Shown here piece after piece: positions 5,758-56,088 of a DNA stretch of 64,000 nt; position 1 is the first letter of the stretch; every line of letters starts with the position of its first letter. The DNA lies in NCBI GenBank assembly GCA_965178125.1, contig OZ237776.1, positions 310,001-374,000 of the forward strand. The letters are read 5' to 3'. The stretch is from Bilabrum cf. latius (Eukaryota). Position numbers and translations under genes: made by a program. A model generated the notes under the pieces. That model was not told the DNA's origin and ran no database searches. It was given only the letters and a program-made list of their open reading frames with translations.

Positions 5758-5832
5758 CTGTGCGAGGGATAATCCAAAGAATATCAACAAGATCATTCTC
5801 GATAATGATTCTGAGGCACAGTTGCAGCGCGG
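5699..5832. repeat. Copy A of a diverged ~135-bp direct repeat; overlaps the U2AF65 5' exon start and its putative acceptor
   Basis: Aligns by eye with 9040-9174: shared tcgc..gattgct..a.cgggcgcat.ggctg, aggtggtgctccacctgtgcg and tgattctga.gcacagttgc.gcg.gg. Confidence 0.85.
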
Positions 5833-10402: not shown

Positions 10403-10714
10403 ACAGCCGTATTTGCTTCGTTCGCCGCTTCACTAAATGCTGACGGCGATACCTGTGAAATAGGTTGGGACACGTCACTAGGACGATTTGGCTCGTAAGC
10501 TCAATTATGGCTATCATTCCAATTGAAAGTGCGTTTGAACAGATATCAAAATATAGAAGTGACATATTATAGGAAAACATGCGGGCAGTACTCACGTGAA
10601 CGTTGGGGATTGTACAGGATCCTTGCTTGCAGTTGTGCAAAAAAACGAAAGTTCGATTTCGGTAATGAGGACGAGGAATCCGTGTCGACATGAAGGGGCT
10701 CATTATTGACTAAT

Positions 10715-11395
10715 ATGGCCCAGTTGTCGAGCAGCAGCGATCGAACAGAGTTAGATATTTCCAAAGATTAGAGCGATGCGCTAAAGTTGGCAGCAGCTCA
10801 GCCGGCATCGTCAAGTTCTGGTAATCGGGTTGCACAAGCTTTGCGCACGTTGCCCGCAACGGCAGAAGCCGCGGATACTGGAATGGGACAATCGGCTGTG
10901 TTTTCCGATACTTCTGTGCTTGAAGTCGTGGCGGACGCTATCCGGTAGGGCGTGGCTGGCGCTGAGGCCGCTCGAGCTCTGCAACGAAGTGGTTTGCAAT
11001 CGGAGTCTGCTGCAGCCGGACTGGCTACAGACACTGCATCCACAATCAAATCTGAAGGACGAGGAGGCGGACTACTAGATACAACTGTGGCCCGGCTGCC
11101 GGTCCTGCGAGATTTGCGCTGGAGGCTTGATTGGCTGGCTTCGTCGTCGGCGCGCGGTTCAGTGGGCGAGCCCGCGGCGGTGCTCACTTTCATCATCGAG
11201 GATCCACCGGCTGCGCGCGCAGACGAGCGATCTGCAGCAGAGGATGAAGCCTCACACGGTGGTCCGGGGCCCGCTGCCGCCAGGTTTCGCACTGTGGAGG
11301 TAGGATGCAACGCGCACAGGCTGCAGTCGCTGCTGGAGGCCGTGGAGGCAGCCTGCAAAACAGCAGAGAAAATTGGTGCAGGGTCTGCGCTTTGA
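10715..11395 (+). CDS. COMM-domain protein (COMMD family, most like COMMD3), 226 aa
   Basis: COMM signature LPVLRDLRWRLDWLASS...EPAAVLTF...VGCNAHRLQSLLEAVEAACKTAEKI. A typical ~200-aa length is obtained only by reading TAG at 10769 and 10946 from ATG 10715. TGA stop. Confidence 0.8.
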
Positions 11396-11891: not shown

Positions 11892-14800
11892 TTACCCAAA
11901 GAGAGACCGGATCCTAGCCTAGGCACCACGCAGCCCCGCTCGCTTGAAGCCAGCGCTGGCCCACACGTGGCTCCGCAGCTTGCCCCAGAGTTGCCGCGCT
12001 CTGTTTTGTTTGCGGTCCGACGCCGTCGCACGGCTGGAATCTTCGTGTCTCCGAGCGCCAGCCCCCGCGCCGATCTTCTATCTTCTGACATCCGCGGGCA
12101 AGGCAGCCGAGGTGGATCCTTGCATGCTCGAGGCTGGCTCCTCGCCGCCCATGGGCGATCTGGGTGGTGGGGCAGCGCCACTCTCGCGTGTGCCACCAGC
12201 CCGGCGGTTTGAGGGATCCTGACCGGTATCCTGGAGGGAGAATATCCTCCCAACGCCCCGGCGAAGCTAACTCGATCGGCCACCCTTACTTGGTCCTCTT
12301 CTAGCTTCTGCAAGTGCCTGACTCGGTCCAGGCTTCCAACCTTCAAAATCCTTGTCATCAACGCCTTGACTGCTAGGCCCTGTCCGGTGTCCGTCCATCA
12401 CCTCGTGAGTCGGGCCTTCTGCTGGCTCTCGTGACCGGCTGGCGCCCGCCCTACCACTGGCAGAGTTGCTCGATGCAGGTGCAAATCCGCTCGCACCTCG
12501 TCTCTGTCGCTTGCTTCTGCCAATCGACGACTTTCTGTCAGAAGCAACTCGATCTCGATGCAGCGCCGCTCCCGCCACCGCAGCTCTGCCGTTTGGTCTC
12601 CGGCCAGCCCGTGCTCGTCCAGCCTATGGCGATACCACTGGCGCCATGGCAACCTACGGAGGCATTCCAAGCGGGCGCATCGGTGCACTCGATGGCAAAG
12701 CTGATCTCTGTTTTCCGTCCATCACCCCGCGAGTCGGGCCTTCTGCCGGCTCTCGTGACCGACTGGCGTCAGCGCTACCATTGGCAGAGTCATTGGATGC
12801 AGTGGACGATTTGACCTCGTCTCCAATGAAGGATCGTCTCTGTTCGTGTCCGCTAGATCGCAGATCGATACCAGCCGCCTTCAGGTACTTTGTGTGCCTC
12901 CTTGGTTGCTTGACGACGCTGTGCGACCTCACGCGAGTCGGAACAGTCTTCCTCTGGGAATCGTCTGTCTCCATCTCGCGAACCACGGCTGCGACATCGT
13001 GAGTTGCACGCTGCTGTCGTTTGGATGTATCGCTAGGCTCTGCATCGGGGTAGTTACTCTTTTGGTCATGCTTTTCTGCAGACTCCAGCCCAGGAAGGCG
13101 TGTCGGTGAGTCTGCCCGTCTCTCAAGCGACAGGGTCGAATCTGCCACGCCGAGGACAGGCGAGTCTCCCACTAGATGTCGGGACGAGCTTGACTTCAGC
13201 TGCATCGCACGCTTTCGAGACTGCAGAGAACGTTTGGCCGCCGCTCGGTCCTCTGCACTGCTGCTTCGACCCCTAGATTCCGCGGAGGACTAGCTACGAA
13301 CCTCAATCCTGCCGTGCAAATGCGCTTCGGCGATCACTTTGTCTTCTTCGCCACGAGCTCTCGACCGCAGGGAAGCAGAGTCGTTGCTAACAATGCTCGC
13401 TGCAGACATGGCGGCGCCGGCAACATCGGTAGGAAGGCTAGGCGTGGCGCTGCTTCCCTCCACACTTGAGTCAGCAGCTGCTGTACGCAAGCGCTTGGAG
13501 CTCCTGCCACGCATGCGGTCGCCGAGTGCGGGAGCGCGGTAGGCCGACAGCTGCCCACCATGCGACTGGGGAGCCTGCTCTGACGAATCGGATCGCCGGG
13601 ATGGCTCTTTGGAGTTCTTCGTGACGAGACTGCCGCGACCATCGCTAGACGACTGCTATTTATCCACGCGGCTGGACACAGCTGCCGCGAACTTGGTACC
13701 GGAACCACGCATTGGGTTGCTGCCCCGAAACACGTCTTCGTCAGGAGCGCCGGTATTGCCCAATTGGTTTGACTGCCCACGCTCGCGAGCTCTCGCGCCA
13801 AAATCAGTTCGTGACGGGTGACTAGGCCCGCCCGCTGCACCGCGACTCTGCTCCGAAGCCGCAGCTGCACCAGCAGCGAGCATAGGATTCGATCCACGAA
13901 ACATGCCACTACCACCATGCCTCATCGGAGTCCGTGACAGTGCCGATCCATTACGGCCATGCTGAGGCTGCTGCTTCGCTCGCGCACCGGCGGCGAATTT
14001 GTCACGGGACATGGCAGCCAACTGCCGTTCCGCTCGTAGGATCTTGCGCACATCTTCGTCGCCCAACGCATGCCCACTTGCCCCGGATGCGGTGTACATT
14101 GGGAGAAATTCCGGCATGTGAATCAACTTTTTTCTTAGTGCGGGGTTGACTGAAACCTCGGGCAGCTGCTGCAAAAGTGTGGCATCCCTCTCTTGCTTGA
14201 CCTTCTCTAGCTCCAGCTTGGCTCGCATGGCTGCCGCGGACTCAACCTAGTCGGTGATGAGGATGTTGTGCTCACTGCAGGCGCGCAATGGCCGGCTGCT
14301 GGTACCCTGAACAGAGTGCCACACATGGCTTCCTTTCTGTTTCCTCCTCAACTTCCTGTCCTGAGTCAGTGTCATGATCGCTCGGAGCGGATTCCGGATC
14401 GTGGGCTCGGACGGCTGCTGCGGGAAGAGGTCTATCTCTGTTCCTGTATAATACCGGATCATTGGCCGTCCCGTGAACTGATGCTGGATCGCCTCATGCA
14501 CCGCCTTGCGCTTGCTCTCCGCATCGCTTCGAAACGAGTAGAACACGGTCGCGATCAACGCCAAATACACGGTGGCATTCAACGCTAGGAGCACCACGGT
14601 GATAACCAGGTCCCACCGCTCGGCCGACCTGACTACTTTAGCCTCTGCTTGTTCCCTCCATAAATCTATTGGGTCAAATGTGGTGCCATTGGAAAGGTTC
14701 AATTCGACGTCAAGCAATACATCACTTTCACCGCCTCCCGCCACACCAAGCGACTCGATCTCAGATTGCTATGCGAATCGATTGGCCTCGTCAATGGCCC

Positions 14801-17800
14801 TCTACAGCTCAACTCTCTCATCGTACTCAGTCGCGATGTCTCGCATCTGAGACAAGGTCTGCTCTTCCGATCGTAGGAAGATCAGCGACAGGATCTGGGT
14901 GGCAACAAGGGACACTAGACCGTACGACTCAACCGAGTTGAGCCACCACCTGTCGTACGGCAGCAGCTCCAGATGGGCTACTAGAGATATGACTGCCACG
15001 AATGACGCTAGGATGACTGCCTGGTACGGCTCTTGCACGAAAGTCCCAAATAAAATGATGCAGGTCTTGCGGATGATCTGTACTGATTCCCACCAGTACC
15101 GCTGCCGTTCCACATCGTACCCTTTGAAGAGAAAGCCGAACTACTGGAAGAAGCTAAAAGTTCGTATCTCACTGCTGTGGTATGCATTACAAAGAAGAAC
15201 GACCATGATCATAGGAAATGTCAGCCCCAATATCAGGATCACAACTGCCGCGATCGCGACAGCTATTGTGTGCTATTCTGTATAGCACTGCACGGAGTAG
15301 TCCATTCTCAGGTAGCTGATCCCACCGATGGGTTCAGAACATCCCATCACACCAAGCCCCTGCGTGATAACTGTTGGCAGGGTCATGAACGTAAGCAACA
15401 CAGCTGTCGACGCAAGGTCACCACTCTGCATGTACTGCTGCGTGGCTTCCGCCAGGGGCCGGAAGATGCGCTTTCCGCACTGGTGCTACAGTCTGGCGCA
15501 GCAACTGTTATCCAAGGTCCCGTTTGCATCCGAGCTGGTTGGGTCAGGCTTTCCATCTTGTTGCGAACGAGCGACCGGCTATCTCGTGCCAACAGCTGGT
15601 GCAGTTCTGCCATCCAACGACGAAACTGCGGCTGCCCCGGTTGCTCGACCACTTCCTTTTGTAGCACGGTCAGACGCTTCCTAACTGCCAGGCATAGTAT
15701 CGCCGGGTGGTAAAGATGCATCAGGGTCGCTATTTTGAGGGCCGGTGTGGACCTCCACGGTAAGAGTGCGTGTCGAGCGAGCAGCTGCTACTCGCTTCTT
15801 CTTGATGGCGCGCAGCCACTCATCGACAGCTTGCTTGTTCTTACTTTTCTCGTACTTTTGCAGCTGCTTCCGTAGCCGTGCTAGCTTCCGGATCTATTCC
15901 TCCGTGGACTTACCGTCAGCGATTCGCCGCCTCTCCATCCACGTGAGGGGCCGCTTTGCCTGGTACCTGAGCTCTTCCCTCCTCTCTAGGATGAGCTTGT
16001 CCGTGTCCACTCCCTTGGCGGCGTTGAAGAGGATGTTCATCAACACACCAACAACAATCGCGATGCCCGTCATGAACAGCGAGATGTAAAGCTTCTGAAA
16101 GTACCCCATCTTAAGCTGACACTAAACGGCACTCCCCCCGAGTACATCCCCAGAGGCAGAGGAAGCGTAAGACACGTACTTGCGGAACGTCTGGGTGCCG
16201 CGGGCTCTAAATATGCCCATGATTGTCAGAAATTGAGTGTATCCCAGACCAATCTTAGCCACTACGCCCCAGTAGCTGAACCTATTCGGTTTGCGAACGA
16301 CCGAAATGTAGAACATGAACGCCGCAGCGCCCAAGGCTGTCACCCCTACCGTGATCCAACCCTCTAGATCACTACCGCACTTTACGCATTGAAAACCTTC
16401 CATAGCATATCCAGAAGCAGCGCATGTAGCGCAAAGAGGGCCACCGTATCCCTTGGCGCACCTATATGTTCTTGCCTGCTGGTCTACGATGCACACGTCG
16501 GGATTCGGGCAAAGGTGCAGTTCCGTATCCTAGTCCACTAACACCGACCCTGTCTGGTTATCAAATCTAGCGCTTGATTCCACCAAGAAATGCCCGGGAA
16601 GCAGCTTCAAGATGCCGCCAGAGCAGTCCACCCCGGTTGGTGGGCATTCGATGCATGCTTTGCCGTCGTACCCATCGGCATAGTGGTTGGCTGGACAGCT
16701 ATCGCACCTGTACTCGCCGGTTCGACTCTCTTCGGTGGACGGAGGGCAGAACCCGACCTGCTGCTCTACCCTAGTGAATCCAGGCGGCAGTGGCTTCCCA
16801 CCCCTTGTGCACTCAAAGTCCATGGCGTAGGTTGTGCCCTGCTTCCCGGAGAGCATCAAGTCTGGAAGGTACATCCGACCGTTTCTAGCCACTGTGGATC
16901 GTGTGAACTGGAGCTCCACCCGGCCAAATGGATCATCCACCACGGAATTGCTCTGAACGAGGGCTGCCTAGCAGACGGTAGCAGAATCTGTTCGATCTGG
17001 CATGAGTACCGCAACGGATTGCTCGGGTGGATACATGTCTGGCATCCGATCCAGAGTAGGCAGCAAAGCGCTCGAATCCAGCGTAGCCAAACGACGATGA
17101 TTGTGACGGCCGTTGGCTTTATCATGGCTCGAGTTTGGTCCATATCGGGAAATTGAGTCAACTGCTTCCGCATACGTGTCCGACTGTACACCTGGAACCC
17201 GGCTGTGCAGTGGTACAAGCTGCAGCCTAGCTGTCTTTGCGGGCAATACTGGTGTCACCGCAAGCGAACGGGGACCGAAGGCATGGGTCTATCCCAAATG
17301 GAGTTGAGCGCCATGTTCCGATGCTAGGGACGTCACTGGGACCGAGGCTTGAGCGAGCTGGTGTGGCCACATGGCCCAAGACGGTAGAATCGACATAGTC
17401 AGGAGCTGCAGGTCAAGCGACTGCTGCGACACGATCTTCTGCTGGAGTGATGTGGTGGGCACCACAGCTGACCAGGCCGATGCGATGTCGATTGTGGCTG
17501 TGTCAAACAACTGGCCAGTCGGTCGGTTGCACGACAGCTCGACCGATATGACGGCTCCCATGGACAGCTAGGGGGTCAGCGCTTCAATCTCGACAGTCCA
17601 TGCTGGCATGCGGGGCAGCGCTAGTTGCTTGAGCTCATGGCTGATGCTAGAGACATCATCCAGTAATGCAGCCGCCTGCACATGCACGCAAGACTCCAGG
17701 TCAGCTGTCCAGTAAGCCGAAAATGTGCGCATTCCGGTGAGCTGGTCTATTGGCTTCCCACTGATTATTTCGCCTTCCCAGTCGGCCTGAACCGACAGAC

Positions 17801-20800
17801 TCGGTGCAAAGGACGCGATCAATTGAGACACTGGAGGAGCGTTTTCTCTCCCTATCAAGGACGATAAGTCCAAGTACCTTGCGTATCCTACCACACGGTC
17901 ACTCATCGCACCGGCCGAGACGATCTCATCTCCGTCAGAGCCTGGTTCTTGCAAATCAAGGAGCATATCGTCGCTTGGGTCATAGCCAGATTGCCGAGCA
18001 AAGGTTGAGGCTAGCCTGACATTCCAATCAGCTGTCTGTTGGCTGTTGCTGTCCCTCTCGGTTCCTGCCTATCGCAGTTGCAGCTGATCGACTGGTCGAG
18101 TAGTCCAGGAGGGACCTGTCCGCCTTCTGTCCACAAGCATTCGAATTCTATCGGTGCCTGTTCGATTCAAGCTAGTTTGTACGTATGCAGGAGAGAAGTC
18201 TGTGACGACAATCCCTGCATCTCGTAGGAATGTCAAAAGAACGGTTTCATCTGCCGAGGCCGTTGTGAGAACACCCCCTAATCCACTTGGCACGTCAGTG
18301 TTGGCATCAATTGCAAACTAGGATAGCTGTAGCTGGCTTAGCCTATCCTATATGTCCTACCGCTCCTCATCGGTATCAGCTGCCTGTAACTCGGCCTGCA
18401 GTTCACCCTATCGTATTAGAAGACGCGACTGCGCTGCCGTTGCAATGATCCGCGCAGTGGCTTGCGCATCGTAACCCTGCAGTCGGTTGGACAGGAGTTC
18501 CGGTGACTATAGCCCCGCGAAAGCGCTTGAATCGCTAGGCAATCGACCCGACACTGATGTACGTCCAGTCCACCTCGGGTCCGTTGACTCTGTAGCGTCA
18601 TACGCATAGTTAGGCAACACCTACTTCAGTTCCTGCAGTGCAAGCGTCCTGTTGATCCACTGCCTCGTACTTCCGATGTCAACAGAACACTTGGATCCTT
18701 GCATGCTCACCGCTTCTCCGAGTTCATCGATGGCACTGACCAGCATGGAAGGCTCAAGCGCCTCCCGAAACCTCTCATTGGATGGGTTGAAGGCCTGCCG
18801 AGGCCGCCGCAGGAGGAATGGCCTCACGCGGCGGATGAATGAGTACACGGGCGGCGACTGCGTGGTGAAGGTGCCTATCTTGCAACGCACGCGGATCGCC
18901 AGCACGCTTCCAGGGGCGCCGGAGGCCCGCACAGCCAGAGACGCGCGTCCAGTCTCGACGTCTACCTCGGCCCCGGCCCGCTCGCTGCCACGACTGGTGA
19001 GAGATGCAATGGATGGTGCCTGTATACTACCACTACGATCTGGGTTTGCGTTCGCGGCCATAGAGCGCGCCTCAACGCCCACTTGCTCCGCCAGCTGGGC
19101 AGCTGCGCCGGGGTCTTCCTCCAGCTCACAGGTGGCTCCAGCGATGAACTGCGCCACCTCATCTTCTGTTGGCCCTGCGGATCGCTGCAGACCGGTAGCA
19201 TTGTCGGTGACGTACAATTCACTGCCAGGCAGTGATCCGGCTAGAGAGCCAGGGAACCGCATGTTGACCTGAAGAGTGGCATCGAGCTGGTATGGTGAAT
19301 CTTCCAGGCACCGCACACAAGAAGCCTGGTCTGGCCAGGTATCGAATTCCTGGGCGGTGACACCACCACTACTCTCAGTGTCTGAGACCGCGCGTTTTAA
19401 CTACAGGAGCTAGGGCGCAGTGAACGGTTTTAGGGTGTACGCATCCACGGTACCTAGTCCGATGTCTACAACTATGTGCAAGGGCGCGGGGTCTGGTGCA
19501 AGACCTCGCATCGAGCACCCTACTCGAAGCGGAACTCTGGCTCCAAAGGGTGCGGCCAGCGCAGTACCGTCAAATCGTGCTACACCATCCGCACCAGGGA
19601 CAGCCTTATCTGTACCAAGAACCTGCATTGAAGCCGCATCGCGGTCCGATATGGCAACTGCTTGCAGGATGCCGTTGACCCGTGAGTACACGATCGTGTC
19701 TGCGAGCTTATCCTGATCAATTGACAATGTGCACGTTACTTTACGCAAGGTAACTTCAGGAAGGCTGTCCCCGGCGTATCCGGAGACTCGCACAGCCGGA
19801 GCAGGGTCCATCGGAGTGATTCGACGGGTAGACGAAGGCAAGGTCACCAGGGGTGGCAGCTGCGCCCAACGGGACTCCAGCTGCTGCACATGCCCCGCAA
19901 ACACAGCACCACCGACTTGCTACTCCTGCAGGCGGCATGCCAGCACCAGCATAATCAGTCGAGAAGCCAGCTAAGATGAGGTAGGCACAACCTGCAGCCC
20001 TGCCGCTAGCAGTTTGCCCCCTTCATCTGCTTTGAACACCTGCGGTCCCCGCAGCGGCACGCTTGCAGGATGCTCTGCTCCGGTCGTCGATGCGGCCGTA
20101 ATCCACCAATCAGCCGATTTGGATGTATTGTCATCCCATGCGCCGTCTAGTAGTCTAGGCGCGACGGCAAATGGCGTGCACGACACGTCACCAACTGCCA
20201 GACCCAGCACCTCCCGCGCGTCCTGTCCTCCTGCCACAAGCAGCGCGCTAAGATGAGAAGCGGTGCTATTGCGCTGCAGAAAGACGTTATCGTACGGTTG
20301 GATCGGCATGGTAGAGACGCCTGCAGCTTCCAGTTCGGCCTAATCGGGCGCTGTCCAGTCGGTACCCTCAAAGGTGGCCTGGAGGTCGTAGCCCTCGATT
20401 GAGTCAACGAGCTTGAGGTAGATTCCAGGCAGTGTCATCTCAGCGATCGGGAAAGAAAGCTGAGCAAGTATCTCCGCCGCAGCATTCAGTGACGTGGAGC
20501 CTGGTGAGAAGTCGGAACCAGTGGCCATGGCCCCTGTCAGAGCCATGGAGAAGTCCGGCACGAGCGTACTAGGAAGTCGGACGGAAACCTCCACACCGGA
20601 TGGCAGCTGGCAACGCACGGTGGGAAGTCCCACGGTTGCTGGACTCATCACGAGGCCGAGGAGGTCAAGTTCTATGTCGGACGAGCGCGCGTCAAAGATG
20701 GCTCCAGGTCCGATGGGGTCACACTGGAGGGTGCTGGCGTCCCCCGACCCAGCCTCCGGAACGATGCGCACGAGCCTCTGTGGCAAACAGGACACCTGAC

Positions 20801-44800: not shown

Positions 44801-47800
44801 GCTAATGCGGGCCCACTAGGCAGGACGGGCTACCAGATCGAAGGAAGCCACGCCTACTAAGATGATCTGATAGCACTGCAATGGCAGTCCTGTAGGACGC
44901 AGGCGATTTAGATGCAGAGGCTGATGAGGTTGATTGCAACGCCGACTAAGCGAAAGGATGGGTAGACCAGGACTCGCCGCTCTAGTCCTGAGGAGTTCCC
45001 GACGCCCTCCCAGCTGCAGCTTGAAGAATAGAGCTACTATCTAATGGCGATACCATTCGGGAGCTTGGCGAGACACCAGCAGTCACGAAGCCAACATGGT
45101 CCACAAACATCCGCCATACTCCGCCTGTGTACTCATTCTGCTGACCCACCCCAACGAACAGGATGTCCGCACATGGTCCGCCGAACTCGTTCGGCTCGGC
45201 ATACGGTGTGTTTTCCATTGCCTCTTGGATGTCTACTACATCCCGTCGCGTCCTTGATCCGTTTGAAGGAAGCATAGGGGCAACCATGGATAGCGCGCTT
45301 GGGTAAGACCCGGCCTCGTGGGTTGGGGCGGCCTCTAGCCTTTGCCCGGCTTTCACATCCATTGCTCGTATAGCTAGCAGCTCCAATGCGGCGCCGTCGT
45401 AGGGTTGAGCCTTAAATGTAATACCGGACAACATTCCATGAGGAGCCATTGCGACGATTGCTGCCCTCTCATTTCCTGCCAGTGCTGGCCCACACAGCCC
45501 CTCATGGTTGGAACCAGCAAATGGAGACGTGTCGCCTTCACCCTAGAACATCTAACGCCTCGCGACAAAATCATCCGCACCTTGACGAACAGTCTTGAGT
45601 GTCTCAACCCGGTCAACATCTGTGTGTTGAACGAGAACTGTTGATGTACCCCGTTCCAAGAAGTCCTCATCGAGCACGACGTGAGAGGCAAGAGCCAAGC
45701 GCCCAACGATGCTCTCGGTCTGGCGCAATCTATAGCCACCAGCATCCGCTAGGATTGATTCTGTATGATCCCACTATACTTGATTGCAGACATGCGTTGG
45801 CGTACTGCTATTGCCAACAGTGGCGTTCGGTACGGACGAGTTGCGCTCGCAAATCGGCTGCAGCTTCGTGATACTGCGCCGATCATTGCGAATATCAACG
45901 AACTGCACGCTATTACTGCCACTGTGCTCGTGCGAGGATGCGTGCTACTGGTGCGCAGCTTCGATTACGCCCATGGCAAGCCGCTCAAACAGAGACCAGT
46001 TGCCATTCCGGAGGGAGTCTTGGAGGTCGTCGTGGTCCCACGTCACCGATACTTTGGAATCGATGATGCCATATAGCAGCGGTTGCAACACTAACGATGC
46101 CGGTGGAGTGTTGTGAACTAGCTCAACATCACTGATGTCTACCCAACCGGAACTTTGCACCACTCCGTCTGATAGACAGGATGGTACTCCGCTAATGTTC
46201 CGTTCAAAGTTTACAGCGGAGCTCCCGGTACCGCCACTGCCGGCAGCAAGTACAACTCCAGCTTGCGCTTGCCCAGGACACTGCCTCGAGGCCTGTTCGA
46301 CATATGTTAGCTCACCACGCTACGCGCGCGACTCTTCGAACGAGAAGAACTCGGCTTCTTGGGCAGCTCGTTGCAGCGGGCCAGACCCAAACGTGTCGTC
46401 CTCGCTGCCGCTGGCCCAGCTTGGCCTTGCATTTCCATTCGAATACTTTAGGAACGTTCGCGGAGACAGCTGCGGGTACGCTGCATGCGCCCCAATAACC
46501 ATGATGCCAGGTGTCGCCACGTCCATCCGCACTTGTTCTCCGGCTGCTGCCCCGTCTCCCACAATGACACGCGCGTCCCTTATACCCGCCGCCCACGCGG
46601 TGGCAGCTCCAACTGACCCACAAATCACTGCAAAGCCCGCCTCACCAAACACAGACCCGGTGCCAGCCAACCGACTGCTAAACCCTATGGACGAATGCGA
46701 ATCAAGTGCGTCTGATACATTGTAAATTTGTTGCACTTGTCCATCCGTCTGGTGAGGTATCTGGGCTATGGAGTCTAGTCGAGCCAGCTCACGCACGCTG
46801 TGACCTGCAAAGTAGTCGCCAGGCATGATTCTGCCGATAAACTGGCCGTACGATCGGCCTGTCGTCAAGCTATCAGGCAGCATTTCATGGACCTGGGTCT
46901 CATTAGCGCGCTGATATCTTGTCCCTGCCGGTCCGCGCGCTGCCAGGGCGGTGCCGTCGCTCAAAATGATATCGTATCCAGAAGGAGCCGGCATGCATCT
47001 ACTATGATACTCGTTTAAATCTACCGCATGAACTTCAGTGGACAGTCCTGGGGAAGCTAATTGAGCGAGCTATGAAGAGTTAGAGATACCAATCACGAAG
47101 CTCGCTGCGGCTTCTGCTCCTGCAAACCCGTTCGATGACGTGCACGCTGGCGGCAACGACTGCAACACAGTGCCAATCCCTTGCGTGGCAACTGCGTCTA
47201 GACCATTCAGTCCATGCGGCAGACCGGTTCTACTTCCAATATCACTGAAGCACTTGCCTTCGCAGCAGATAACTCCTCCCAGCACAGTGGGGAGCAGAGC
47301 ACGGCCGCAAGCAGTTGCGCGATCCTCTGGTCGCATCGGCAGAGCCATGCCTTTGAGATACCCAGCGACTGCATTCTCAAGTACATTGCGCTTCGCGAAT
47401 GGCAGAGATTTCCAATGCGAGGGCGAGCCTGTTGAGCACGTTTGGTTCTATTCCAGAATTTCTCGAAGCGTCTGCGCCTGGGCAACCAGTCCGTTTGCCA
47501 CATCCAAAACGCTTCCGGCAGCTGCAACCGACCTACTACTGACATCCTTCGGCTACAAGCTTACTGGTGCAACGCCTGATGTTTGGAGTTGGAATGCTTG
47601 ATTTTGAGCGATGCATGGGGATACTGGGCGGCCTTCATCCCGCGATGACACGGTCCAGTGCTAGAGGTCATGCTAGCAGCCGCCGACATCAGCTCCATTC
47701 CAAGTGCCTAACCAACTGTCTCGTGAGTGTAGACGCATCTGCTATCGCTCCGTAAAGCCCTTGGAGTAGATACCTCTTGCTTCTGACGCGATTGCCAGCC

Positions 47801-50800
47801 TGCCAGCTAGCACAGTTTCCGTTGCCCTCGCTGTGAGTACTTCGATGCTAGACGATGCTCCGAAGCACTGGAGACTACGCATGCCAACTGATTGCTGCGG
47901 CGACTTTGGCGATGCACAGGCGACGTCTGCTCCCAATGTCCACCACTCGCCCATTCGCATGCTATCAGAGTGCGAATACCTCACGCTTCGTGCCACTGCT
48001 TCAGGGCTTGCGCGGCCGATGGGAAGCCCAGCAAATACGTCCGCTGACGGGCTTGTCATTGCCTAAGTGACGTTTGATGGAAGATATTGATTCAGCTAGA
48101 CTGAAAGCTTGGCTAGGCCTGCAGCGTGCTATCGTCCGACCCGGTCGCCTATCAACCCATCGTGCCAGTCCCGCACATCTTGTCCTGACTTGATAGATGC
48201 ATTCAAAAGAGACTGCACTAGCGGGTTTGAAGAAACAGCCACGCCGGTATCCATCCATTCCTTTGCCAGCATTCTCCCGGCTGCGTCTGCCACAGCTCCA
48301 GACTTTGCGTAGAGGATGCTTTCCCGCGCTGCTGGCCTACATGGCGCCGTGAGCTGCTCCATGGTTCCACTCGTGTCTGAGCCCCAGCAAATCGGACAGG
48401 TCCCAGTTGGCCGTAGCAGACCAGCATCGGCGGCACCTAGCTGGATTGCGGTGGCCCAAGCCGCATCGATGTCATCGCTGCCAAGCGTCGAGCTCGTGTT
48501 TGCTTGCATCGCTAGGGCAGGCCAAGCGCATGCAAATGTCTAGCTACACTTGAGTTTTCCGACGGGCAGAGCCGGGGTGAGCATGGTCATGTTTGAACCT
48601 GTTCGGCTATCCATTAACCTCTGGATGTCTACCGCAGAAACTGATATTTCTGGTGGAACGCTGCTTGCGATTCTCACTCCAGATGGCGCATGCGACCCGC
48701 GGTCAACGCTAGCAGTCTGAAAGCAATGCACTGCGCCAAGCTCTGACAAAGTACAGCCGAAGTCGCGGCCCATGCACACATCCACTGGGGCGGGCAACTG
48801 CACTTGGCTGGTCGATGCACGGGCGGTGGACAGGTTCAAATTTGGCTCTGGAAACTCCGCGACAAACACCGCAATCGAGTCGTTGGTGCTGCGAGTATAG
48901 CTAGGGCTGGACGCTGCAGCAGGGCTGCTGCTTGGCGACTCAAACATGCTGCTGGGCACGGGGACAGACTGGATTGCAAGCGACTGGTTGGTAGAATCCA
49001 GCGGACCTCCGCCGATCGCAAGCTTACCAACGACCTTGCCAACAGCGTCCGTATTATGGTGCGGGTCCAGCTTCGTGGAGGCGCTTGGAACCATTAAAGT
49101 CATGCGGATGCCAGCAGATTCAGCTGCTGATTGCCTTCCAGACGTAGAGTTTCCTGGTACTCCAAGAATGACGCGGCTGGCCAGGTGATGAACTGTGTCA
49201 CGAGAGCCAAAGCAAGCCAGTATTCTTCTGAATCGAACCTTGCCGATAAAGTGGTTCCAAATTGCATCCTCTGGGTTTATCATCTGGGCTGCTGCGTTAG
49301 TAACGATGTCAGGGAAGCTGGATAGCGGCTGCGTATTGCTAGCATTGAACATGAAGTTCAAGCTGCGAGCACTATCTGGGTCTGCAATGCTACCCAAGGC
49401 ACATGCTGCCATTGGGCTTGCAGCTACTCGCATCGGGTGGAACCCACCGAGCTGACCAGAAGGCGCAACCGCAGACACGGAGTGGCAGCTCGTGCTGCCG
49501 CCCTCTTTGTACAGCAGCACGGTGCCTGGAATGTCCTCTCGAAACGGGTGCTTACCGGGGTGTGCGTTGACCAGAGTCTGCAATGGTCTCTGCAACGTGC
49601 CTCCGACTGAGACTACGCTGATCGGCTTGACCCGTCCAGTCGAGTTATCTCTCCATGTGTACTTTGACTCTTGTACTGAAAACCGGAGTGTCGGCACAGC
49701 GTGATCCAAGTGGTTAGCAAGCGCGGCGGGTAGGACCTACAAGCCCTGGAGCACCGGGCTTATGGATCCACTCTCGGTACCGTTCTCGCTGATTACGCTC
49801 TCACCGTGGCAGTGCAATCCAGCAGCAGATCCATCCCGACCCCACCTGTCTCCTCCAGTGGCTTGGCATACAAAATCATCCGTAACCGCCGCATCCAGAA
49901 CAGGAGAGGCCCGTGCCAAGGATGGAAGGGCGTTGTACATGCATGTGGATGTAGCGTCGCGCTGGTAGAGATCAGCGTGTAGCAGGGATGTGTTCGCCAA
50001 CGAAGGTTCATTGCTGGTGGTAGTGCTGCCATTTGCACCTCGACTGGCTAATTGGTTCACCTGCTGCTCAATCGAGTGGCGCATACCCTTTAGTCTGCCT
50101 AGCTTTGAAGTGGGAAGCGCAGCGTAGCATGCCAGCGATCTTGGGTGCACTCCATCATCAACATCGTAGAGCGGGGCTGAGTCAGTACCGTGAGTTTCTT
50201 GACTTGTCGCCCTAGCATAGCACACGACAGCACCAGACGCGTACACTGCAGTTGCCCTTCGCTCATGCCCTTGCAGTGCGTGGGTCGCGCCGCAAGCATC
50301 CAATCCTGCCTCCAGCTGGAGCGCCACATACTCCTCTAGCTTGGTGTAGAGCATATGCAGGCCGACATCGGCCTCTACTAGCGGCGATCGGTCTCCATTC
50401 GTCTGTCTTAGCAGTTTGAATATTCTGTCCTTGGCGACCCGAGCAGGCAGCGAAGGATCAGTTGCATGCCCAGGAGGCATCTCTACAAGCCCAGTCAACC
50501 CCTGTCCCGAATCAGAGCTGAGACTCAGTTGCATCTTTCTCAGCGTGGACTCCAGAATCAGCGTGGCCTGGCGTGAGATCGCGCTCACATGCATGGCAGA
50601 CGAGCTGTCGCGGGATGAATCCAGCTCTCCAAATGGGATTTGCTATCCAGCGTATGCAGTCGCGCACATGAGGATACCGCCGCGCTGCCGATTGGTGATG
50701 CTTGGCTAGGTCACGTACACAACCGCTGGCACTTGCCCAAGGACAGCGACAGGCTAGCTCGAAGACGCAACATGGACTCGTTGCGGGCTCTCCTCAACAG

Positions 50801-53800
50801 GAAGCTACTTCGTCGCGGCACCTGATACACTTGAATAATCCAGCAAGGTCGCAGGCCTTTCAAGCCGCGACACAGTCTCTGGATCCCCATACCCGCCGTC
50901 AATAGCAACGGTGTCGTGGTCTGCTGGAACTGCCGCTGCAGCAGCAGTGCGTAGTCCGCGGCCTTCGCATACCATGCCGCTGGAGGCAGGACCGATGCCG
51001 TCATTCGCTAGCATCGCGCACACGAACCCGGCCCCAACGGTCACCTTGACTGCTTTCCCTGCACCCTGCTCGACTCTCGCAGCGTCAGTCTGGGGCAACA
51101 GTGCTGCAAGCCGCTGGTTCAGTCGAGGCGCCGCCGCCAGCACCTCGTCGTCGTCTCCGAAGCACGCAACAGTGCCCCGAGCTGTAGCTAGGCATGCCGA
51201 AGCTAGGCCGGTTGCAACTTCAACAACGCGCAACCGATCCAGTGGGCTGTCTTTAGGTCCATCGTGTACATTTGACTCATTGAGATCGTCTGTGTGCGAG
51301 TCAACAGGCTGCCTGGATCCCGCACCTAGCTATCCTAGTTGATTTACCTACCGTTGCTAGGCAGTCGACACGACAGAAACGCTGCCAAGATGGACATTCC
51401 TGCCCTGCAGCTCGAGCGGATTCCACGGTTCAGGCATATGCGGGGATGTTTTAGTGTCTCCAGAGACAAGGTTAGCATTGAATGCGCATGGCTTTACCCC
51501 TAGCGTGACAGAATCTGGGTGACTTGCGTTTGCTCGCTGAGACGCGGCAGCACATAAATCCCCGCTCACTGCCCGCGGCCCAAGCAGGCTAGACTCTAGC
51601 CCTGACGAGAGGCAGCGAGTCGAATTGTCACCATTCTAGCGGGGTAAGGAGCGACGCGGCAGGTCCCAGCAGACAGCCTTTCCAGATCGTGTAGTGCCGC
51701 ATACGTGCGTGTTTCCGCACTGGATCGACGTGAGATCGACGTCGACACCTCTGTTAGCCAATTCGATCGTCGTTGAAGATCCAAATCGGGCTGTTTTCAT
51801 GGATCCCCAGCACACTATGAGTTGCTCTGGTCTCGATACTAAAGCGCAAAATGAAGTCAAGGTGGCACATATGTCAACCGCGTGGGTGCTATCCAGCTAT
51901 GGAACTCGCCGCAACAAGGGTGGATATACTTGCCGTTTATCGGCTCCAGCGAGCACCCCAAGCTGGGCCGCTGCTTCCACCCGCTAGTATGGAATGGCCT
52001 TTTCGAGGTGCTCATTATTGCGTCGTTGCGTCCAATGTCCCACAGTGCCGTTTGCAAACAGTACTGCGATCGATCCCCCGTTCCGTAAAACTGAAACCTT
52101 GCGTGCCGGTGAGATTGCTGAGTCTGGTATCGGCAGAAACTAGCCACTCAGGATATTTCCGCGTGTAATAGCATGTACGGGCACTCCACTAGGCCTCATA
52201 CTTTCTTCGGTTGCACATCGAACCCCTCCCCAAGCAAGAAGCCCGCAAACCAGGTCCCCCTCATTGGAAGTGCTCACGTGCACATACCCAGTGGCTGCGG
52301 CGGACTGTAGCGTCGCACTGGCCTCGCAGTCGAGCTAGCGCTGCCTGGATGAGCTAGTGTTCATTCCTGAGCCTATACACTGCCCTATACCTGTGTACTG
52401 ATTGCGGGGAGCATTTGAAGCTATGTAGCCAGGCTTGAGCGCAACCACTGATGAAACGGAAGTCCTCGGCGAGTGGCATCCAATGCAACCTTGACACCGA
52501 ATGGCCCTTGAGCTCGACTCTATGAAGCACATGTGCGCGCGGCCTGCAGCAAGTTTGTTCAATCGCGTATGGAGCCCGTGCGACACCCCGCGGGGCCACA
52601 AACGAGCTGTAGCTGCAGTGGAAGCAGAGGAAGGGGTCGTGGTCCTGCCGGCCGCGAATACTTGACGTCTAGATGGCCTGCCGCTTGAAACTGGCTCGTT
52701 CTATTCTGCGAGCAGTGGTACAGTCTGCGATAGTGTACTCTATTGAAGCTGCTTGATAGAGCGCTTTGCAAGGGCATCCGATCCAAATAACGTGTCGCTT
52801 TCATCGTCGCCGGACTCGGTGGGAGCGCAAACATGATTTCCTAGGTCCACTGCACCTGGACTCAAGCACTGCGGAGCGTGCCATGAGATTGAATAGGACT
52901 TGGCCTGATCGCACTGCTGCACTGAAAGTTCTTGGAGGTACTCGGATGTGTCTGCTAGACGCTCCTTGTCCTATGTAACCCACGGTGGCAATGACCAGGC
53001 CTGGCCTGATCCGCTGTACCGCCAGCCCTGCGACATCGCCCTGCCAGGTGCTGCAGGGTACAAGTACGTGCTCCCGCCGGTCTGCCACTCAATGGGATTT
53101 CGAAGCACTGTGGGCGCGACATGAACAAGCACTTGATCGTGAGCACCAAGCTCCCATGCGCCAGGCGGGGTATACGTCTGCCAGATGCCCGTGTTGTGCA
53201 GACCGCCAAGCAGTCTCACAACGGGCACAGGAACATGTATATCCATCGCGAGTCGTGCACGGCTTGCCTCCAATGCAGTTCCAGTTGCTTGCGTCTGCTG
53301 TAACAGCGGTAGGAGAGGTACAGAGGCAGAGGCGTCCCCTGCTGGCATGCACACCTGCTAGCCTGTTTTCGCCACGGCACCAGTTCGGATGGGGGCGTGC
53401 CCGGCTCCTGGGTTGCAGAAGTAGCAGCTGGTCCCAGCTTTCGTAGAGTATCGTTTACTTCTGGAATCGTATCTCGTGGAACTTTGCCTGTCCGAGTACA
53501 CGAAGTCTACGTTGCGGGCTGGCTGGTCGTCCAGGTCGGAGGCGCACCTGGGGCACCCAGGTGGCCTCGCCTGGCTGCTCCTCACGCCTGCCTATTGATT
53601 GCTGCACCGCGGACATTTGTCTGCACCTAATGATGATGATGTTCCGACATCGCAGGGGTTGCAACGTGTGCTGCCAAAATTGCCTTGGGACGTTCCGGGC
53701 TCACATGGGAGTGCCTGAGTCGCCTCATCGTTGGGGACGTACCTGCCTTTACCGGCCTCTTTGCAGCTGTTCTGCTTCACATTTGGCTGGTATGTCCCAG

Positions 53801-55841
53801 CCTTGCACACCTTGCACTCCTCAAGCCCGCGTACATCGGCGAACCGCCCTGGCTGGCACGCCTTGCATGCACTCTAGCCGGCCTCATCGTTGTACCTCCC
53901 AGTGGGACAATCCACCGGCAGGATTGAACCCACTTGGAATGCATAGGTGCCACGAGGCACCGAGAAACACTACAAGCTACCTTGTGACGACTAGAAACGC
54001 CCTATTGGGCATGGTGTACACGACGATGTACCGCTTGCTGGTTGGTATCGACCAGCCGGACACAAGGCGCACTGTCCAGACCTAGGAGAAGCGGCAAACT
54101 TGCCGGCTGGACACGCTCGGCACTGCTCGGCTGCTCCAGTTGCATAACGACCCGAGGGGCAGTCATCACACTGTGAAGATCCTAGACTCGCGGCAAAGCG
54201 GCCAACAGCGCAACCCGTGCAGACTGCATCTCCAGATCGAGAGAAGCGTCCTGGCTGGCACTCGGTGCACGACGACGCTCCCGCGATTGCCGATGTTCCA
54301 GCACTACAGGCACTGCAACCAGTCTACTCTGCATTGGGTATGGTGCCCCCACTGCATTGCACGCAGCTGCTGGCATTCGCGCCCGAGTACGTGCCCGCCG
54401 GACAGCCCGAGCAGCTGCTGGCATTCGCGTCCGAGTACGTCCCCGCCGGACAGCTCGCGCAGCTGCTGGCATTCGCGTCCGAGTACGTCCCCGCCGGACA
54501 GCCCGAGCAGCTGCTGGCATTCGCGTCCGAGTACGTCCCCGCCGGACAGCCCGCGCAGCTGCTGGCATTCGCGTCCGAGTACGTCCCCGCCGGACAGCTC
54601 GAGCAGCTGCTGGCATTCGCGTCCGAGTACGTCCCCGCCGGACAGCTCGAGCAGCTGCTGGCATTCGCGTCCGAGTACGTCCCCGCCGGACAGCTCGAGC
54701 AGCTGCTGGCATTCGCGTCCGAGTACGTCCCCGCCGGACAGCCCGCGCAGCTGCTGGCATTCGCGTCCGAGTACGTCCCCGCCGGACAGCTCGAGCAGCT
54801 GCTGGCATTCGCGTCCGAGTACGTCCCCGCCGGACAGCTCGAGCAGCTGCTGGCATTCGCGTCCGAGTACGTCCCCGCCGGACAGCTCGAGCAGCTGCTG
54901 GCATTCGCGTCCGAGTACGTCCCCGCCGGACAGCCCGAGCAGCTGCTGGCATTCGCGTCCGAGTACGTCCCCGCCGGACAGCCCGAGCAGCTGCTGGCAT
55001 TCGCGTCCGAGTACGTCCCCGCCGGACAGCTCGAGCAGCTGCTGGCATTCGCGTCCGAGTACGTCCCCGCCGGACAGCCCGAGCAGCTGCTGGCATTTGC
55101 GTCCGAGTACGTCCCCGCCGGACAGCCCGAGCAGCTGATGGCATTTGCGTCCGAGTACGTCCCCGCCGGACAGCCCGAGCAGCTGCTGGCATTCGCGTCC
55201 GAGTACGTCCCCGCCGGACAGCCCGAGCAGCTGCTGGCATTCGCGTCCGAGTACGTCCCCGCCGGACAGCCCGAGCAGCTGCTGGCATTTGCGTCCGAGT
55301 ACGTCCCCGCCGGACAGCCCGAGCAGCTGCTGGCATTTGCGTCCGAGTACGTCCCCGCCGGACAGCCCGAGCAGCTGCTGGCATTCGCGTCCGAGTACGT
55401 CCCCGCCGGACAGCCCGAGCAGCTGCTGGCATTCGCGTCCGAGTACGTCCCCACCGGACAGCCCGAGCAGCTGCTGGCATTCGCGTCCGAGTACGTCCCC
55501 GCCGGACAGCCCGAGCAGCTGCTGGCATTGTAGAGCGACGAGTAGTATCCAGGCTGACATGGTACGCATGCCGGTCTGTGCCACGCAAATCCGTTCCCGC
55601 ATACGCACGAGATGTTGCCGCCATGGAAACTGCTAATATTCTGATTATTAAGTGTTGCATTGGTTAATGCAGCTGGCCTTGCATTTTCTATGCAGTTGGC
55701 TTGTGCAAAAGAGAAGAAGCCAAAGCCTGCCGCAAAGACAACAATTATGAACATAATTGACGGTACAAGCTCATCAATCCTCCACAAATATGATGTTTTA
55801 CTTAATGGCCGCAATCTCCCCTGTTGGCGCTATTGTGGCAT
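11892..55841 (-). CDS. Giant (~14,650 aa) intronless surface/receptor-like membrane protein; alternative start ATG at 55754
   Basis: About 70 listed minus-strand ORFs share one frame and all end in TAG. Every gap between them was translated by hand and contains no TAA/TGA. First true stop is TAA at 11894-11892. Signal-peptide-like MFIIVVFAAGFGFFSFAQANC at the N-terminus and a coherent domain order follow. Confidence 0.88.
12391..12802 (-). repeat. Dispersed ~88-nt coding duplication in the cytoplasmic tail (ASRSREPAEGPT..VMDG) at 12391-12478 and 12715-12802
   Basis: Direct nucleotide similarity; the 324-nt offset keeps the frame. Confidence 0.8.
14540..16380 (-). other. Multi-pass (~7 TM) domain of the giant protein, of the type found at the C-terminus of protist beta-helix/GPCR-related membrane proteins
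   Basis: Preceded by CAKGYGGPLCATC. Contains KIGLGYTQFL, YLRMDYSVQCYTE, FGFLFKGYDVERQRYWWESVQIIRK, LLPYDRWWLNSVE and several hydrophobic helices. Confidence 0.75.
31550..36900 (-). other. GGAI-type (pectin-lyase-like / Pmp-like beta-helix) repeat region of the giant protein
   Basis: Recurrent GSGGAVSA, GDGGGMAV, GSGGAILL, GSGGAIRV, RHGGAIAA, GGGAIRA, GSGGCIEL, MQGGVLRA, FGGCLAS, MGGAIFSG, SGGGAIAM. Confidence 0.65.
48700..52600 (-). other. RCC1/CRINKLY-like beta-propeller repeats of the giant protein
   Basis: KLAAGRAHMCFIESSSRAIRCQG, SIQCGNTHVCGTTRSGKAVCW, EVATGLASACLATARGTVACFG, KVTVGAGFVCAML, DVCMGRDFGCTLSELGAVHCF. Confidence 0.7.
54362..55529 (-). repeat. 48-nt coding minisatellite, ~24 near-identical copies encoding CPAGTYSDANASSCS(G/S) (GCC2/GCC3 / ephrin-receptor-like Cys-rich repeat)
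   Basis: Unit gagcagctgctggcattcgcgtccgagtacgtccccgccggacagc(c/t)c on the + strand. It grades into diverged CxxCxxGxY/F repeats down to ~53360. Confidence 0.95.
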
Positions 55842-56088
55842 CAGTTGGATGATGTTGCACTCATACACTGGAGGGCGACGTGGAGTCTTCCGAGTCGCAT
55901 TTGGGTGGAACTGCGGACCTCCGCCGGTCTCAGATATTTCCGAAAGCTCGTACCAGAATACTGCAGCTTTGATGGTACGATTGTCACTAACACAAACCAG
56001 TAGCAAAGGCCGAATTCCACCACAGAAGCCATGGAGACGCCGTCGTGGCTTGGATCTGGACTGGGTCCCGATTTGTTAGGACTGGTCC
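55842..56088. promoter_or_regulatory. Putative short bidirectional promoter between two divergent large surface-protein genes
   Basis: Inferred only from the head-to-head arrangement (~250 bp between start codons); no motif identified. Confidence 0.4.

What the first reader, a model, noticed from the sequence alone, without database searches (positions are those of the whole stretch)
11892..55841. UAG and UAA are uncoupled: TAG is sense while TAA and TGA remain stops (translation-table-15-like)
Seen: roughly 200 in-frame TAG by manual count across ~20,000 codons of the seven genes, with no internal TAA or TGA. Genes end in TGA (4181, 4421, 8867, 9974, 11395) or TAA (11892), never TAG. Established: most nuclear reassignments change UAA and UAG together (ciliate-type table 6). 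UAG-only changes are rare, e.g. Iotanema spirale (Gln), an uncultured rhizarian (Leu) and some phyllopharyngean ciliates. Inference: this GC-rich, intron-poor genome does not look like a typical AT-rich ciliate, so it may be an independent, possibly undescribed origin. It would imply an altered eRF1 and a CUA-anticodon tRNA. Only one TAA terminator is visible here, so TAA=stop rests mainly on its absence inside ORFs.
Basis: partly seen in the sequence, partly recalled or inferred. Interest (0 to 1): 0.92.

Follow-up and report, generated by a model that had tools for sequence, protein, structure and literature searches.

The report
Stop codon TAG encodes glutamine
In this piece of a microbial eukaryote's nuclear DNA, TAG is used about once per hundred codons as an ordinary glutamine codon while TAA and TGA still look like stops, a rare genetic-code change known from only a few protists.

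Summary
Seven reading frames (20,212 codons) carry 207 in-frame TAG, 0 TAA and 0 TGA. Five end in TGA, one in TAA, and one runs off the window. Only reading TAG as sense opens the frames: the longest goes from 547 to 14,727 codons, against a maximum of 559 in 100 shuffles.

TAG means glutamine. At 10 of 11 TAG sites covered by close relatives (67-99% identical) the relative has Gln, and the four sites seen as DNA all read CAG. A related species on a metagenome contig (L001) also has in-frame TAG, at two of the same U2AF65 sites.

TAA is not a synonym. CAA/CAG is 330/545, so at least 56 in-frame TAA would be expected, and none is seen.

The DNA is eukaryotic and nuclear (U2AF65, COMM, DUF1475). 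It is 57% GC and compact, and one apparently intronless gene spans 14,704 codons. It fits neither a ciliate nor Amoeboaphelidium.

The lineage is unresolved. No genome is held, so the suppressor tRNA and eRF1 could not be examined. The code type is already known (Iotanema, a few ciliates), so this is probably a new member of a known kind.

The parts
11892..56006 (-). Giant open frame of 14,704 codons with 158 in-frame TAG and no TAA or TGA, ending in TAA. Candidate ATG starts are at 55841 and 55754; the second opens a signal-peptide-like stretch. It has Cys-rich Ephrin_rec_like repeats near the N-terminus and a multi-pass membrane part plus a low-complexity tail at the C-terminus.
   Evidence: fragments of relatives 67-92% identical
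11892..11894 (-). TAA that ends the giant frame. It is the only TAA terminator in the window. The next in-frame stop is a TGA 21 codons further on.
54219..55670 (-). 25 tandem units of 48 nt (16-residue Cys-rich units) inside the giant gene.
4421..5980 (-). U2AF65-like splicing factor gene with 5 in-frame TAG (codons 90, 96, 152, 153, 446 of the frame 4421-5914), ending in TGA. A first exon (5980-5968) and a 210-nt GT..AG intron (5967-5758) are inferred from the sequence only.
51..4181 (+). Open frame of 1,376 codons with no Pfam family and 14 in-frame TAG, ending in TGA. Codon 1028 (3132-3134, TAG) reads CAG in the relative held by run X10.
6756..8867 (+). Open frame of 703 codons with no Pfam family and 2 in-frame TAG, ending in TGA.
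9974..10402 (-). DUF1475-family ORF of 142 codons with no TAG, ending in TGA.
10706..11395 (+). COMM-domain ORF of 229 codons with 2 in-frame TAG, ending in TGA.
56315..64000 (+). Open frame of at least 2,561 codons that runs off the window. It has 26 in-frame TAG and no Pfam family.

Best explanation
This is nuclear DNA of a GC-rich, gene-dense, intron-poor microbial eukaryote whose cytoplasmic translation reads UAG as glutamine, while UGA (the usual terminator here) and UAA remain stops. About 19% of glutamine codons in these genes are TAG (207 of 1,082). The sequence shows that TAG is a frequent in-frame codon, that it corresponds to Gln/CAG in relatives, that TAA and TGA are absent in frame, and that at least two related species share the trait. 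The mechanism is inferred from what is established for other UAG reassignments. A tRNA-Gln with anticodon CUA, one base change away from the CUG isoacceptor, would decode UAG. An eRF1 whose N-domain no longer accepts G at the third stop position but still accepts UAA and UGA would handle termination.
For: (1) 207 TAG, 0 TAA and 0 TGA in 20,212 in-frame codons. Only TAG-as-sense opens the frames: 547 to 14,727 codons, with a shuffle maximum of 559. (2) Gln identity. There are 11 of our TAG sites opposite residues of close relatives whose proteins were called as uninterrupted ORFs or whose DNA was seen, and 10 of them are Gln. These are U2AF65 codons 152, 153 and 446, which are CAG in L001 (P0005 also has Q at 446). 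In the giant gene they are codons 13622, 13735 and 13746 (P0125), 4333 and 4814 (P0129 and P0130) and 10798 (P0131). The last is g1 codon 1028, where T>C gives CAG in run X10. (3) A separate species (L001, 351 of 452 aligned U2AF65 residues identical) has TAG at the same two U2AF65 sites as ours (codons 90 and 96). It also has 3 TAG inside a HECT ligase gene, no in-frame TAA, and TGA at both gene ends. (4) TAA is not synonymous with TAG. CAA/CAG is 330/545, and the lowest A share among the other NNR pairs is 0.21, so at least 56 and up to about 125 TAA would be expected; 0 are seen. The giant gene ends in TAA, as does a coding-looking ORF in L001. (5) The base after TAG is distributed like that after CAG, with no stop-like context. 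(6) Within the Cys-rich repeats, TAG codons 672, 679 and 711 sit where sister units have Q; this is weak, paralogue-based support. (7) The genes are eukaryotic: U2AF65 with RRMs, COMM, DUF1475, and HECT in the relative.
Against: One of the 11 sites shows Pro in the relative (giant codon 11889, P0126). If the P0130 alignment is extended by its last residue, Met falls opposite TAG 4826; this was not counted because it lies outside the BLAST alignment. A distant homologue (P0132, 36% identical) shows V, M and G at three TAG sites, which is uninformative. The one TAG site of the relative's HECT gene that I read off falls at a variable column (A, S, I in three solved ligases); I did not read off the other two, so the family alignment adds nothing. 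TAA as a terminator rests on one gene here and one unverified ORF in L001. No transcript, peptide, tRNA or eRF1 was seen. Whether TAG also ends some genes cannot be judged from ORFs, which cannot end in TAG by construction.
Confidence: 0.85

Rival explanations
1. The code is context-dependent: TAG is glutamine inside genes but still ends some genes near the mRNA 3' end, as described for ambiguous codes in some ciliates and for UAA in Blastocrithidia.
For: Nothing in the window excludes it, because ORFs defined with TAG as sense cannot end in TAG. Only 6 complete gene ends are visible.
Against: U2AF65 ends in TGA at the same residue as its relative and at about the position where distant homologues end. 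The relative's HECT gene ends in TGA about eight residues after the end of the matches to solved HECT domains. The base after in-frame TAG shows no special context.
Confidence: 0.07
2. Both TAA and TAG encode glutamine (table 6, as in ulvophycean algae, hexamitids, Amoeboaphelidium and many ciliates), and TAA is merely rare because the genome is GC-rich.
For: UAR is usually reassigned as a pair (abstract of PMC5304391). Only one or two TAA terminators were seen.
Against: There are 0 TAA against 207 TAG in frame, while A-ending codons make up 21-57% of all 13 other NNA/NNG pairs and CAA/CAG is 330/545. At least 56 TAA would be expected. GC3 is only 0.58. The giant gene stops at TAA.
Confidence: 0.03
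3. TAG is sense but encodes another residue (Leu as in the rhizarian exLh and some ciliates, Ser as in Scotinosphaera, Glu, Tyr, Lys).
For: One site shows Pro in a relative. A distant homologue shows V, M and G. In an internal repeat of the last gene, TAG lies opposite GAG.
Against: 10 of 11 sites in close relatives are Gln. At the four sites seen as DNA the codon is CAG, one transition from TAG. No site shows Leu, Ser, Glu, Tyr or Lys.
Confidence: 0.03
4. The TAGs are not translated as such. They could be RNA editing (U to C), pseudogenes, assembly error, or DNA of a TAG-recoded virus rather than a nucleus.
For: No RNA or protein data could be obtained.
Against: Only TAG occurs in frame, never TAA or TGA. 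The sites are identical in contigs from three other studies. Two TAG sites are conserved between species, and the proteins are under constraint: the U2AF65 protein fragment P0005 is 99% identical, and a contig of the same length in run X10 differs at 77 of about 1,218 bases, though the link between the two is inferred. The gene content is eukaryotic, with a spliceosomal factor and an inferred GT..AG intron. Scans of viral contigs found nothing related.
Confidence: 0.02

Closest known systems
Iotanema spirale (Metamonada: Fornicata) nuclear code: UAG = Gln, UAA and UGA stops (PMC5304391, abstract read; PMC9161772, passages read)
   Same: The same assignment: UAG is glutamine, UAA is kept as a stop, and the two UAR codons are uncoupled.
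   Different: Iotanema is described as an anaerobic caviomonad flagellate and is known from a transcriptome. UAA is its primary terminator, whereas TGA ends 5 of 6 genes here. Its eRF1 has GTS changed to GGS (PMC9161772 passage), and eRF1 could not be seen here. Close relatives of our organism are held by a run labelled algae metagenome (laid) and by a metagenome contig. No phylogeny was possible, so identity of lineage is unlikely but not formally excluded.
Ciliates with UAG = Gln only: Hartmannula sinica, Trochilia petrani (Phyllopharyngea) and Protocruzia tuzeti (PMC11687900, abstract and passages read); formally NCBI table 15
   Same: UAG is widely used as a Gln codon, and UAA and UGA remain stops.
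   Different: In those ciliates UAA is the preferred stop and UGA the rarest. GC is 27-54%, and a contig described there is a 12.5-kb molecule capped with telomeric repeats (passages). Here GC is 57%, TGA is the usual stop, and one contig of at least 64 kb carries seven genes including a 44-kb one.
[quoted passage not shown]
   Same: Stop-to-sense change of TAG in a nuclear genome. Scotinosphaera also keeps TAA as a stop. Language-model look-alikes of two of our proteins point, as a lead only, to plant and algal clusters.
   Different: In ulvophytes with Gln, TAA is reassigned too, and in Scotinosphaera the residue is Ser. No TGTAA motif lies within 300 nt downstream of any of the 6 stops; that this motif is the green-algal poly(A) signal is recalled, not tested. 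Membership in green algae is not shown.
Amoeboaphelidium protococcarum (Aphelida): TAG and TAA = Gln (PMC6299283 and PMC5304391, passages read)
   Same: An alga-associated eukaryote with TAG = Gln. My first guess was this genus.
   Different: TAA is also reassigned there. Its genomes have about 40% GC (Table 1 of PMC10608142) against 57% here. Its proteins are in NCBI (accessions quoted in PMC10608142), yet the best named U2AF65 hits were other fungi at 33-35% and none was Amoeboaphelidium.
TAG-recoded bacteriophages ('genetic code 15', e.g. crAss-like phages; PMC9523058, search listing and abstract start only)
   Same: TAG = Gln, the same formal table.
   Different: Those are prokaryotic viruses using suppressor tRNAs in a bacterial host. 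The genes here are eukaryotic nuclear genes.

Membership tests
Nuclear code with UAG = Gln and UAA/UGA = stop (table 15 pattern; Iotanema type) | Frequent in-frame TAG in real, conserved coding sequence | tested here: met
   207 TAG in 20,212 codons of 7 frames. The genes have Pfam domains and conserved relatives.
Nuclear code with UAG = Gln and UAA/UGA = stop (table 15 pattern; Iotanema type) | TAG sites correspond to glutamine in homologues | tested here: met
   10 of 11 sites in relatives at least 67% identical are Gln, and 1 is Pro. Four sites seen as DNA read CAG.
Nuclear code with UAG = Gln and UAA/UGA = stop (table 15 pattern; Iotanema type) | No in-frame TAA or TGA | tested here: met
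   0 TAA and 0 TGA in 20,212 codons. At least 56 TAA would be expected if TAA were synonymous with TAG. None occurs in the two L001 genes.
Nuclear code with UAG = Gln and UAA/UGA = stop (table 15 pattern; Iotanema type) | TAA (and TGA) terminate genes | tested here: inconclusive
   TGA ends 5 of 6 complete frames and both L001 genes. TAA ends 1 of 6, plus one unverified ORF in L001. No transcript ends are available.
Nuclear code with UAG = Gln and UAA/UGA = stop (table 15 pattern; Iotanema type) | TAG does not terminate genes | not testable with these tools
   This needs many genes with conserved C-termini or 3'-end data. Only the window and one 5.6-kb relative contig were available.
Nuclear code with UAG = Gln and UAA/UGA = stop (table 15 pattern; Iotanema type) | A tRNA with anticodon CUA and glutamine identity | not testable with these tools
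   There are no tRNA genes in the window or in L001, L002, L003 and L007. No whole genome is held.
Nuclear code with UAG = Gln and UAA/UGA = stop (table 15 pattern; Iotanema type) | eRF1 N-domain change that drops UAG recognition | not testable with these tools
   eRF1 is not in the window, and no genome is held.
UAR = Gln code (table 6) | In-frame TAA used alongside TAG | tested here: not met
   0 TAA against 207 TAG.
Ciliate macronuclear genome with UAG reassigned | Lower GC, UAA as preferred stop, UGA rarest (as described for Phyllopharyngea in PMC11687900) | tested here: not met
   GC is 0.555-0.619 per 4-kb bin. TGA ends 5 of 6 frames. One contig of at least 64 kb carries 7 genes.
Amoeboaphelidium (Aphelida) | Genome GC about 40%, TAA also Gln, proteins present in NCBI | tested here: not met
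   GC is 57%. There is no in-frame TAA. No Amoeboaphelidium protein is among the 120 listed U2AF65 hits.

The most novel reading that the evidence does not exclude
This would be a previously undescribed, independent origin of the UAG-to-Gln, UAA-stop code. It would lie in an unplaced clade of GC-rich, compact-genome, intron-poor eukaryotes that turn up with algae. The clade would hold at least three species-level lineages: the window's organism, the relative about 6-13% divergent at DNA level in run X10, and the L001 organism with 78% U2AF65 identity. Unlike every described UAG-only case, it would terminate mainly with UGA. It would also have arisen without AT pressure, which would argue against simple codon capture and call for an eRF1 that separates UAG from UAA in a new way.
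Probability: 0.5. Interest if true: 0.8.

Novelty: new member of a known kind. Interest (0 to 1): 0.68.

Why it matters
Nuclear codes in which UAG and UAA have different meanings are rare. The papers read here list only a handful of Gln cases: Iotanema spirale, Protocruzia tuzeti, Hartmannula sinica and Trochilia petrani. The UAG = Leu cases are a rhizarian and some ciliates, and the UAG = Ser case is Scotinosphaera.

A further origin in a GC-rich, UGA-terminating, non-ciliate genome would be another natural experiment on how eRF1 can tell UAG from UAA. It would also test ideas on why stop codons get reassigned, since codon capture under AT pressure does not fit here.

There is a practical side too. 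Standard gene callers shred this organism's genes. The public protein collections searched here returned only fragments of the 14,704-codon gene. Any annotation or metagenome binning of this lineage therefore needs table 15.

Tried and rejected
- **Amoeboaphelidium or another aphelid as source.** Rejected on GC (about 40% against 57%), on TAA being reassigned there, and on the absence of its NCBI proteins among the hits.
- **Whole genome.** None is held, so no search for tRNA(CUA), eRF1, rRNA or BUSCO genes was possible.
- **RNA genes.** There are no tRNA genes in the window or in four loci. Rfam gave no match over the whole window at gathering scores or over 5900-10100 at E up to 1.
- **Sequencing runs.** No RNA holder was listed. 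All runs laid were contigs and probably DNA, so there is nothing on expression, introns, poly(A) sites or editing.
- **Collection scans.**
  - The metagenome scan with the middle 5,000 residues of the giant protein found no relative.
  - Scans of viral contigs and prokaryotic genome contigs with U2AF65 found none.
- **Protein searches on the giant protein.** They returned few fragments (4, 2 and 2 hits), because candidate lists were capped or relatives are scarce.
- **HECT alignment to solved structures.** The one TAG site of the relative that I read off falls at a variable column, and I did not read off the other two, so this is uninformative.
- **Lineage.** The best named U2AF65 hits are fungi and animals at 33-35%. 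Atlas look-alikes point to streptophyte and chlorophyte clusters for U2AF65 (scores 0.88-0.91) and to diatom and streptophyte clusters for DUF1475 (0.90-0.92). These are leads only.
- **Poly(A) motifs.** There is no TGTAA or AATAAA within 300 nt downstream of the 6 stops.
- **Trees.** A U2AF65 tree was not built, because no sequences from outside opisthokonts were to hand.
- **Literature.** Eight searches found no paper describing a GC-rich non-ciliate eukaryote with UAG-only Gln. Subscription journals and supplements were not searchable, so this is not proof that none exists.

Full report
**What is there**

The window is 55-62% GC throughout. Under the standard code no frame exceeds 547 codons. 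Reading TAG as sense opens frames of 14,727, 2,573 and 1,392 codons, whereas reading TAA or TGA as sense opens nothing. In 100 shuffles of the window the longest TAA/TGA-free run averaged 363 codons, with a maximum of 559.

I tabulated seven frames: 51-4181(+), 4421-5914(-), 6756-8867(+), 9974-10402(-), 10706-11395(+), 11892-56006(-) and 56315-63997(+, open at the window's end). Together they hold 20,212 codons with 207 TAG, 0 TAA and 0 TGA. Five end in TGA and one, the giant gene, ends in TAA.

The two off-frames of the giant gene carry 64-70 TAA and 212-362 TGA, so their absence in frame is selection, not composition.

**The genes are real and eukaryotic**

- 4421-5914(-) is a U2AF65-type splicing factor. 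It has two RRM_1 stretches (E 1.6e-28), an arginine/serine-rich N-terminal part, and full-length alignment to fungal and animal U2AF65.
- 9974-10402(-) matches DUF1475, and 10706-11395(+) has a COMM domain.
- The giant frame starts with a signal-peptide-like stretch and at least 16 Ephrin_rec_like units (E 6.9e-68).
- Within that region, 25 tandem 48-nt repeats lie at 54219-55670.
- It ends with a multi-pass membrane region.
- Read, the U2AF65 gene seems to have a short first exon and a 210-nt GT..AG intron. This is an inference, because no RNA was available.
- Genes alternate between strands, with gaps of 240-840 bp.

**The TAGs are reproducible**

Contigs of runs from three other studies lie on the first 20 kb with 0 other letters over long pieces:
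- X5 over 1-1948, 2000-4308, 4367-5713 and 11621-20000
- X6 over 4345-5754
- X8 over 16282-17468

**Which residue**

Public protein collections hold fragments from close relatives that were called as uninterrupted ORFs. Where such a fragment crosses one of our TAGs, it shows what the relative encodes there.

| Our TAG site | Relative | Residue or codon |
|---|---|---|
| U2AF65 codons 152, 153, 446 | L001/P0006 (351 of 452 aligned residues identical) | Q, codon CAG |
| U2AF65 codon 446 | P0005 (99% identical) | Q |
| Giant codons 13622, 13735, 13746 | P0125 (91%) | Q |
| Giant codon 11889 | P0126 (89%) | P |
| Giant codons 4333, 4814 | P0129, P0130 (81-83%) | Q |
| Giant codon 10798 | P0131 (67%) | Q |
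| g1 codon 1028 (3132-3134) | Relative in run X10 | T>C, giving CAG |

That makes 10 Gln out of 11 sites, and TAG-to-CAG is a single transition.

Results that do not fit or do not help:
- A 36%-identical homologue (P0132) shows V, M and G at three sites in poorly conserved context.
- The last residue of P0130 (Met) would face TAG 4826 if the alignment were extended; it was not counted.
- The relative's HECT TAG site that I read off falls at a variable column of the family.

Within the Cys-rich repeats, TAG codons 672, 679 and 711 sit where sister units have Q. The base following TAG is distributed like that following CAG.

**A second species shares the code**

L001 is a 5,589-bp metagenome contig. 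It carries the U2AF65 orthologue with TAG at the same two N-terminal sites as ours (codons 90 and 96). It also carries a HECT ubiquitin ligase gene with 3 in-frame TAG (Pfam E 7.5e-48). Neither gene has an in-frame TAA, and both end in TGA.

A further coding-looking ORF on it (4422-5219, minus strand) ends in TAA.

Run X10, whose organism label is 'algae metagenome', holds a third, closer relative. Its pieces differ at 6-15% of bases. For example, 77 of about 1,218 letters differ over the U2AF65 gene, while the U2AF65 fragment P0005, whose contig has the same length as that X10 contig, is 99% identical in protein. That P0005 comes from that contig is my inference.

**Is TAA uncoupled from TAG?**

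If TAA were a second glutamine codon, it should follow the usage of other A-ending codons. CAA/CAG is 330/545, and the A share in the 13 other NNA/NNG pairs is 0.21-0.57. With 207 TAG that predicts about 56-125 TAA, and none occurs.

Together with the TAA that ends the giant frame, this supports TAA as a stop or at least not sense. Direct evidence is still one terminator in the window and one in an unverified ORF of the relative.

**Mechanism (inferred, not seen)**

By analogy with described cases, UAG should be read by a tRNA-Gln(CUA), and eRF1 should have lost UAG recognition while keeping UAA and UGA. In Iotanema the GTS motif of eRF1 is changed (PMC9161772, passage). No tRNA lies in the window or in four loci, and no genome is held.

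**Whose genome**

This is unresolved. My first guess, the alga-parasitic aphelid Amoeboaphelidium, fails on three counts:
- It reads TAA as Gln too (PMC6299283 passage).
- Its genomes have about 40% GC (PMC10608142, Table 1).
- Its NCBI proteins did not appear among the U2AF65 hits, where the best named hits were other fungi at 33-35%.

Ciliates with UAG-only codes prefer UAA as stop, and Phyllopharyngea span 27-54% GC (PMC11687900 passages). Here TGA dominates and GC is 57%. Iotanema is an anaerobic caviomonad.

Language-model look-alikes of DUF1475 and of U2AF65 point to diatom, plant and green-algal clusters, but these are leads only. The green-algal TGTAA motif, whose role as the green-algal poly(A) signal is recalled rather than tested, is absent downstream of all 6 stops.

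Eight literature searches found no description of such an organism. Supplements and subscription journals were not available.

**Verdict**

The code variant itself is known, so I file this as a new member of a known kind. There is an even chance that it marks an undescribed, independent origin.

Noticed in passing
window 11892-56006 (-): A single open frame of 14,704 codons (44 kb) needs no intron. It has a signal-peptide-like start, 25 tandem 48-nt Cys-rich units at 54219-55670, long regions without any Pfam family, and a C-terminal multi-pass membrane part. Its only distant full-length-like relative was a 2,219-residue metagenome protein (P0127, 28% identity).
   Followed up: partly
window 5758-5980 (-): The U2AF65 frame has no ATG before its RS-rich part. 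The sequence suggests a 13-nt first coding exon (ATG at 5980) and a 210-nt GT..AG intron (5967-5758). This is an inference without RNA support.
   Followed up: partly
window 9071-9131 and 5727-5787: A 61-nt copy (75% identical, with a 21-nt exact core) of the U2AF65 intron-end/exon-2 junction lies in the 1.1-kb gap between the 6756-8867 gene and the DUF1475 gene. It may be a small duplicated gene fragment.
   Followed up: no
window 6004-6670 and 8672-10005: Summed contig depth is far above neighbouring bins in several runs (X5 379 and X8 204 at 6004-6670; X10 750 and 315 at 8672-10005). This suggests multi-copy elements in intergenic DNA. Rfam finds no RNA family there.
   Followed up: partly
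window, 300 nt downstream of the six stops: Neither AATAAA nor TGTAA occurs. TGTAG occurs downstream of 4 of 6 stops (at 36, 52, 105 and 198 nt). This is too few genes to judge.
   Followed up: no
window 62891-62937 and 62948-62994 (+): There is an internal 47-nt repeat in the last gene. The TAG of the second copy lies opposite GAG (Glu) in the first.
   Followed up: no
L001 1-5589: The relative's contig shares only U2AF65 with the window. Its neighbours differ: a HECT ligase upstream on the same strand, and a TAA-ended membrane-protein-like ORF downstream. Gene order is therefore not conserved at about 78% protein identity.
   Followed up: partly
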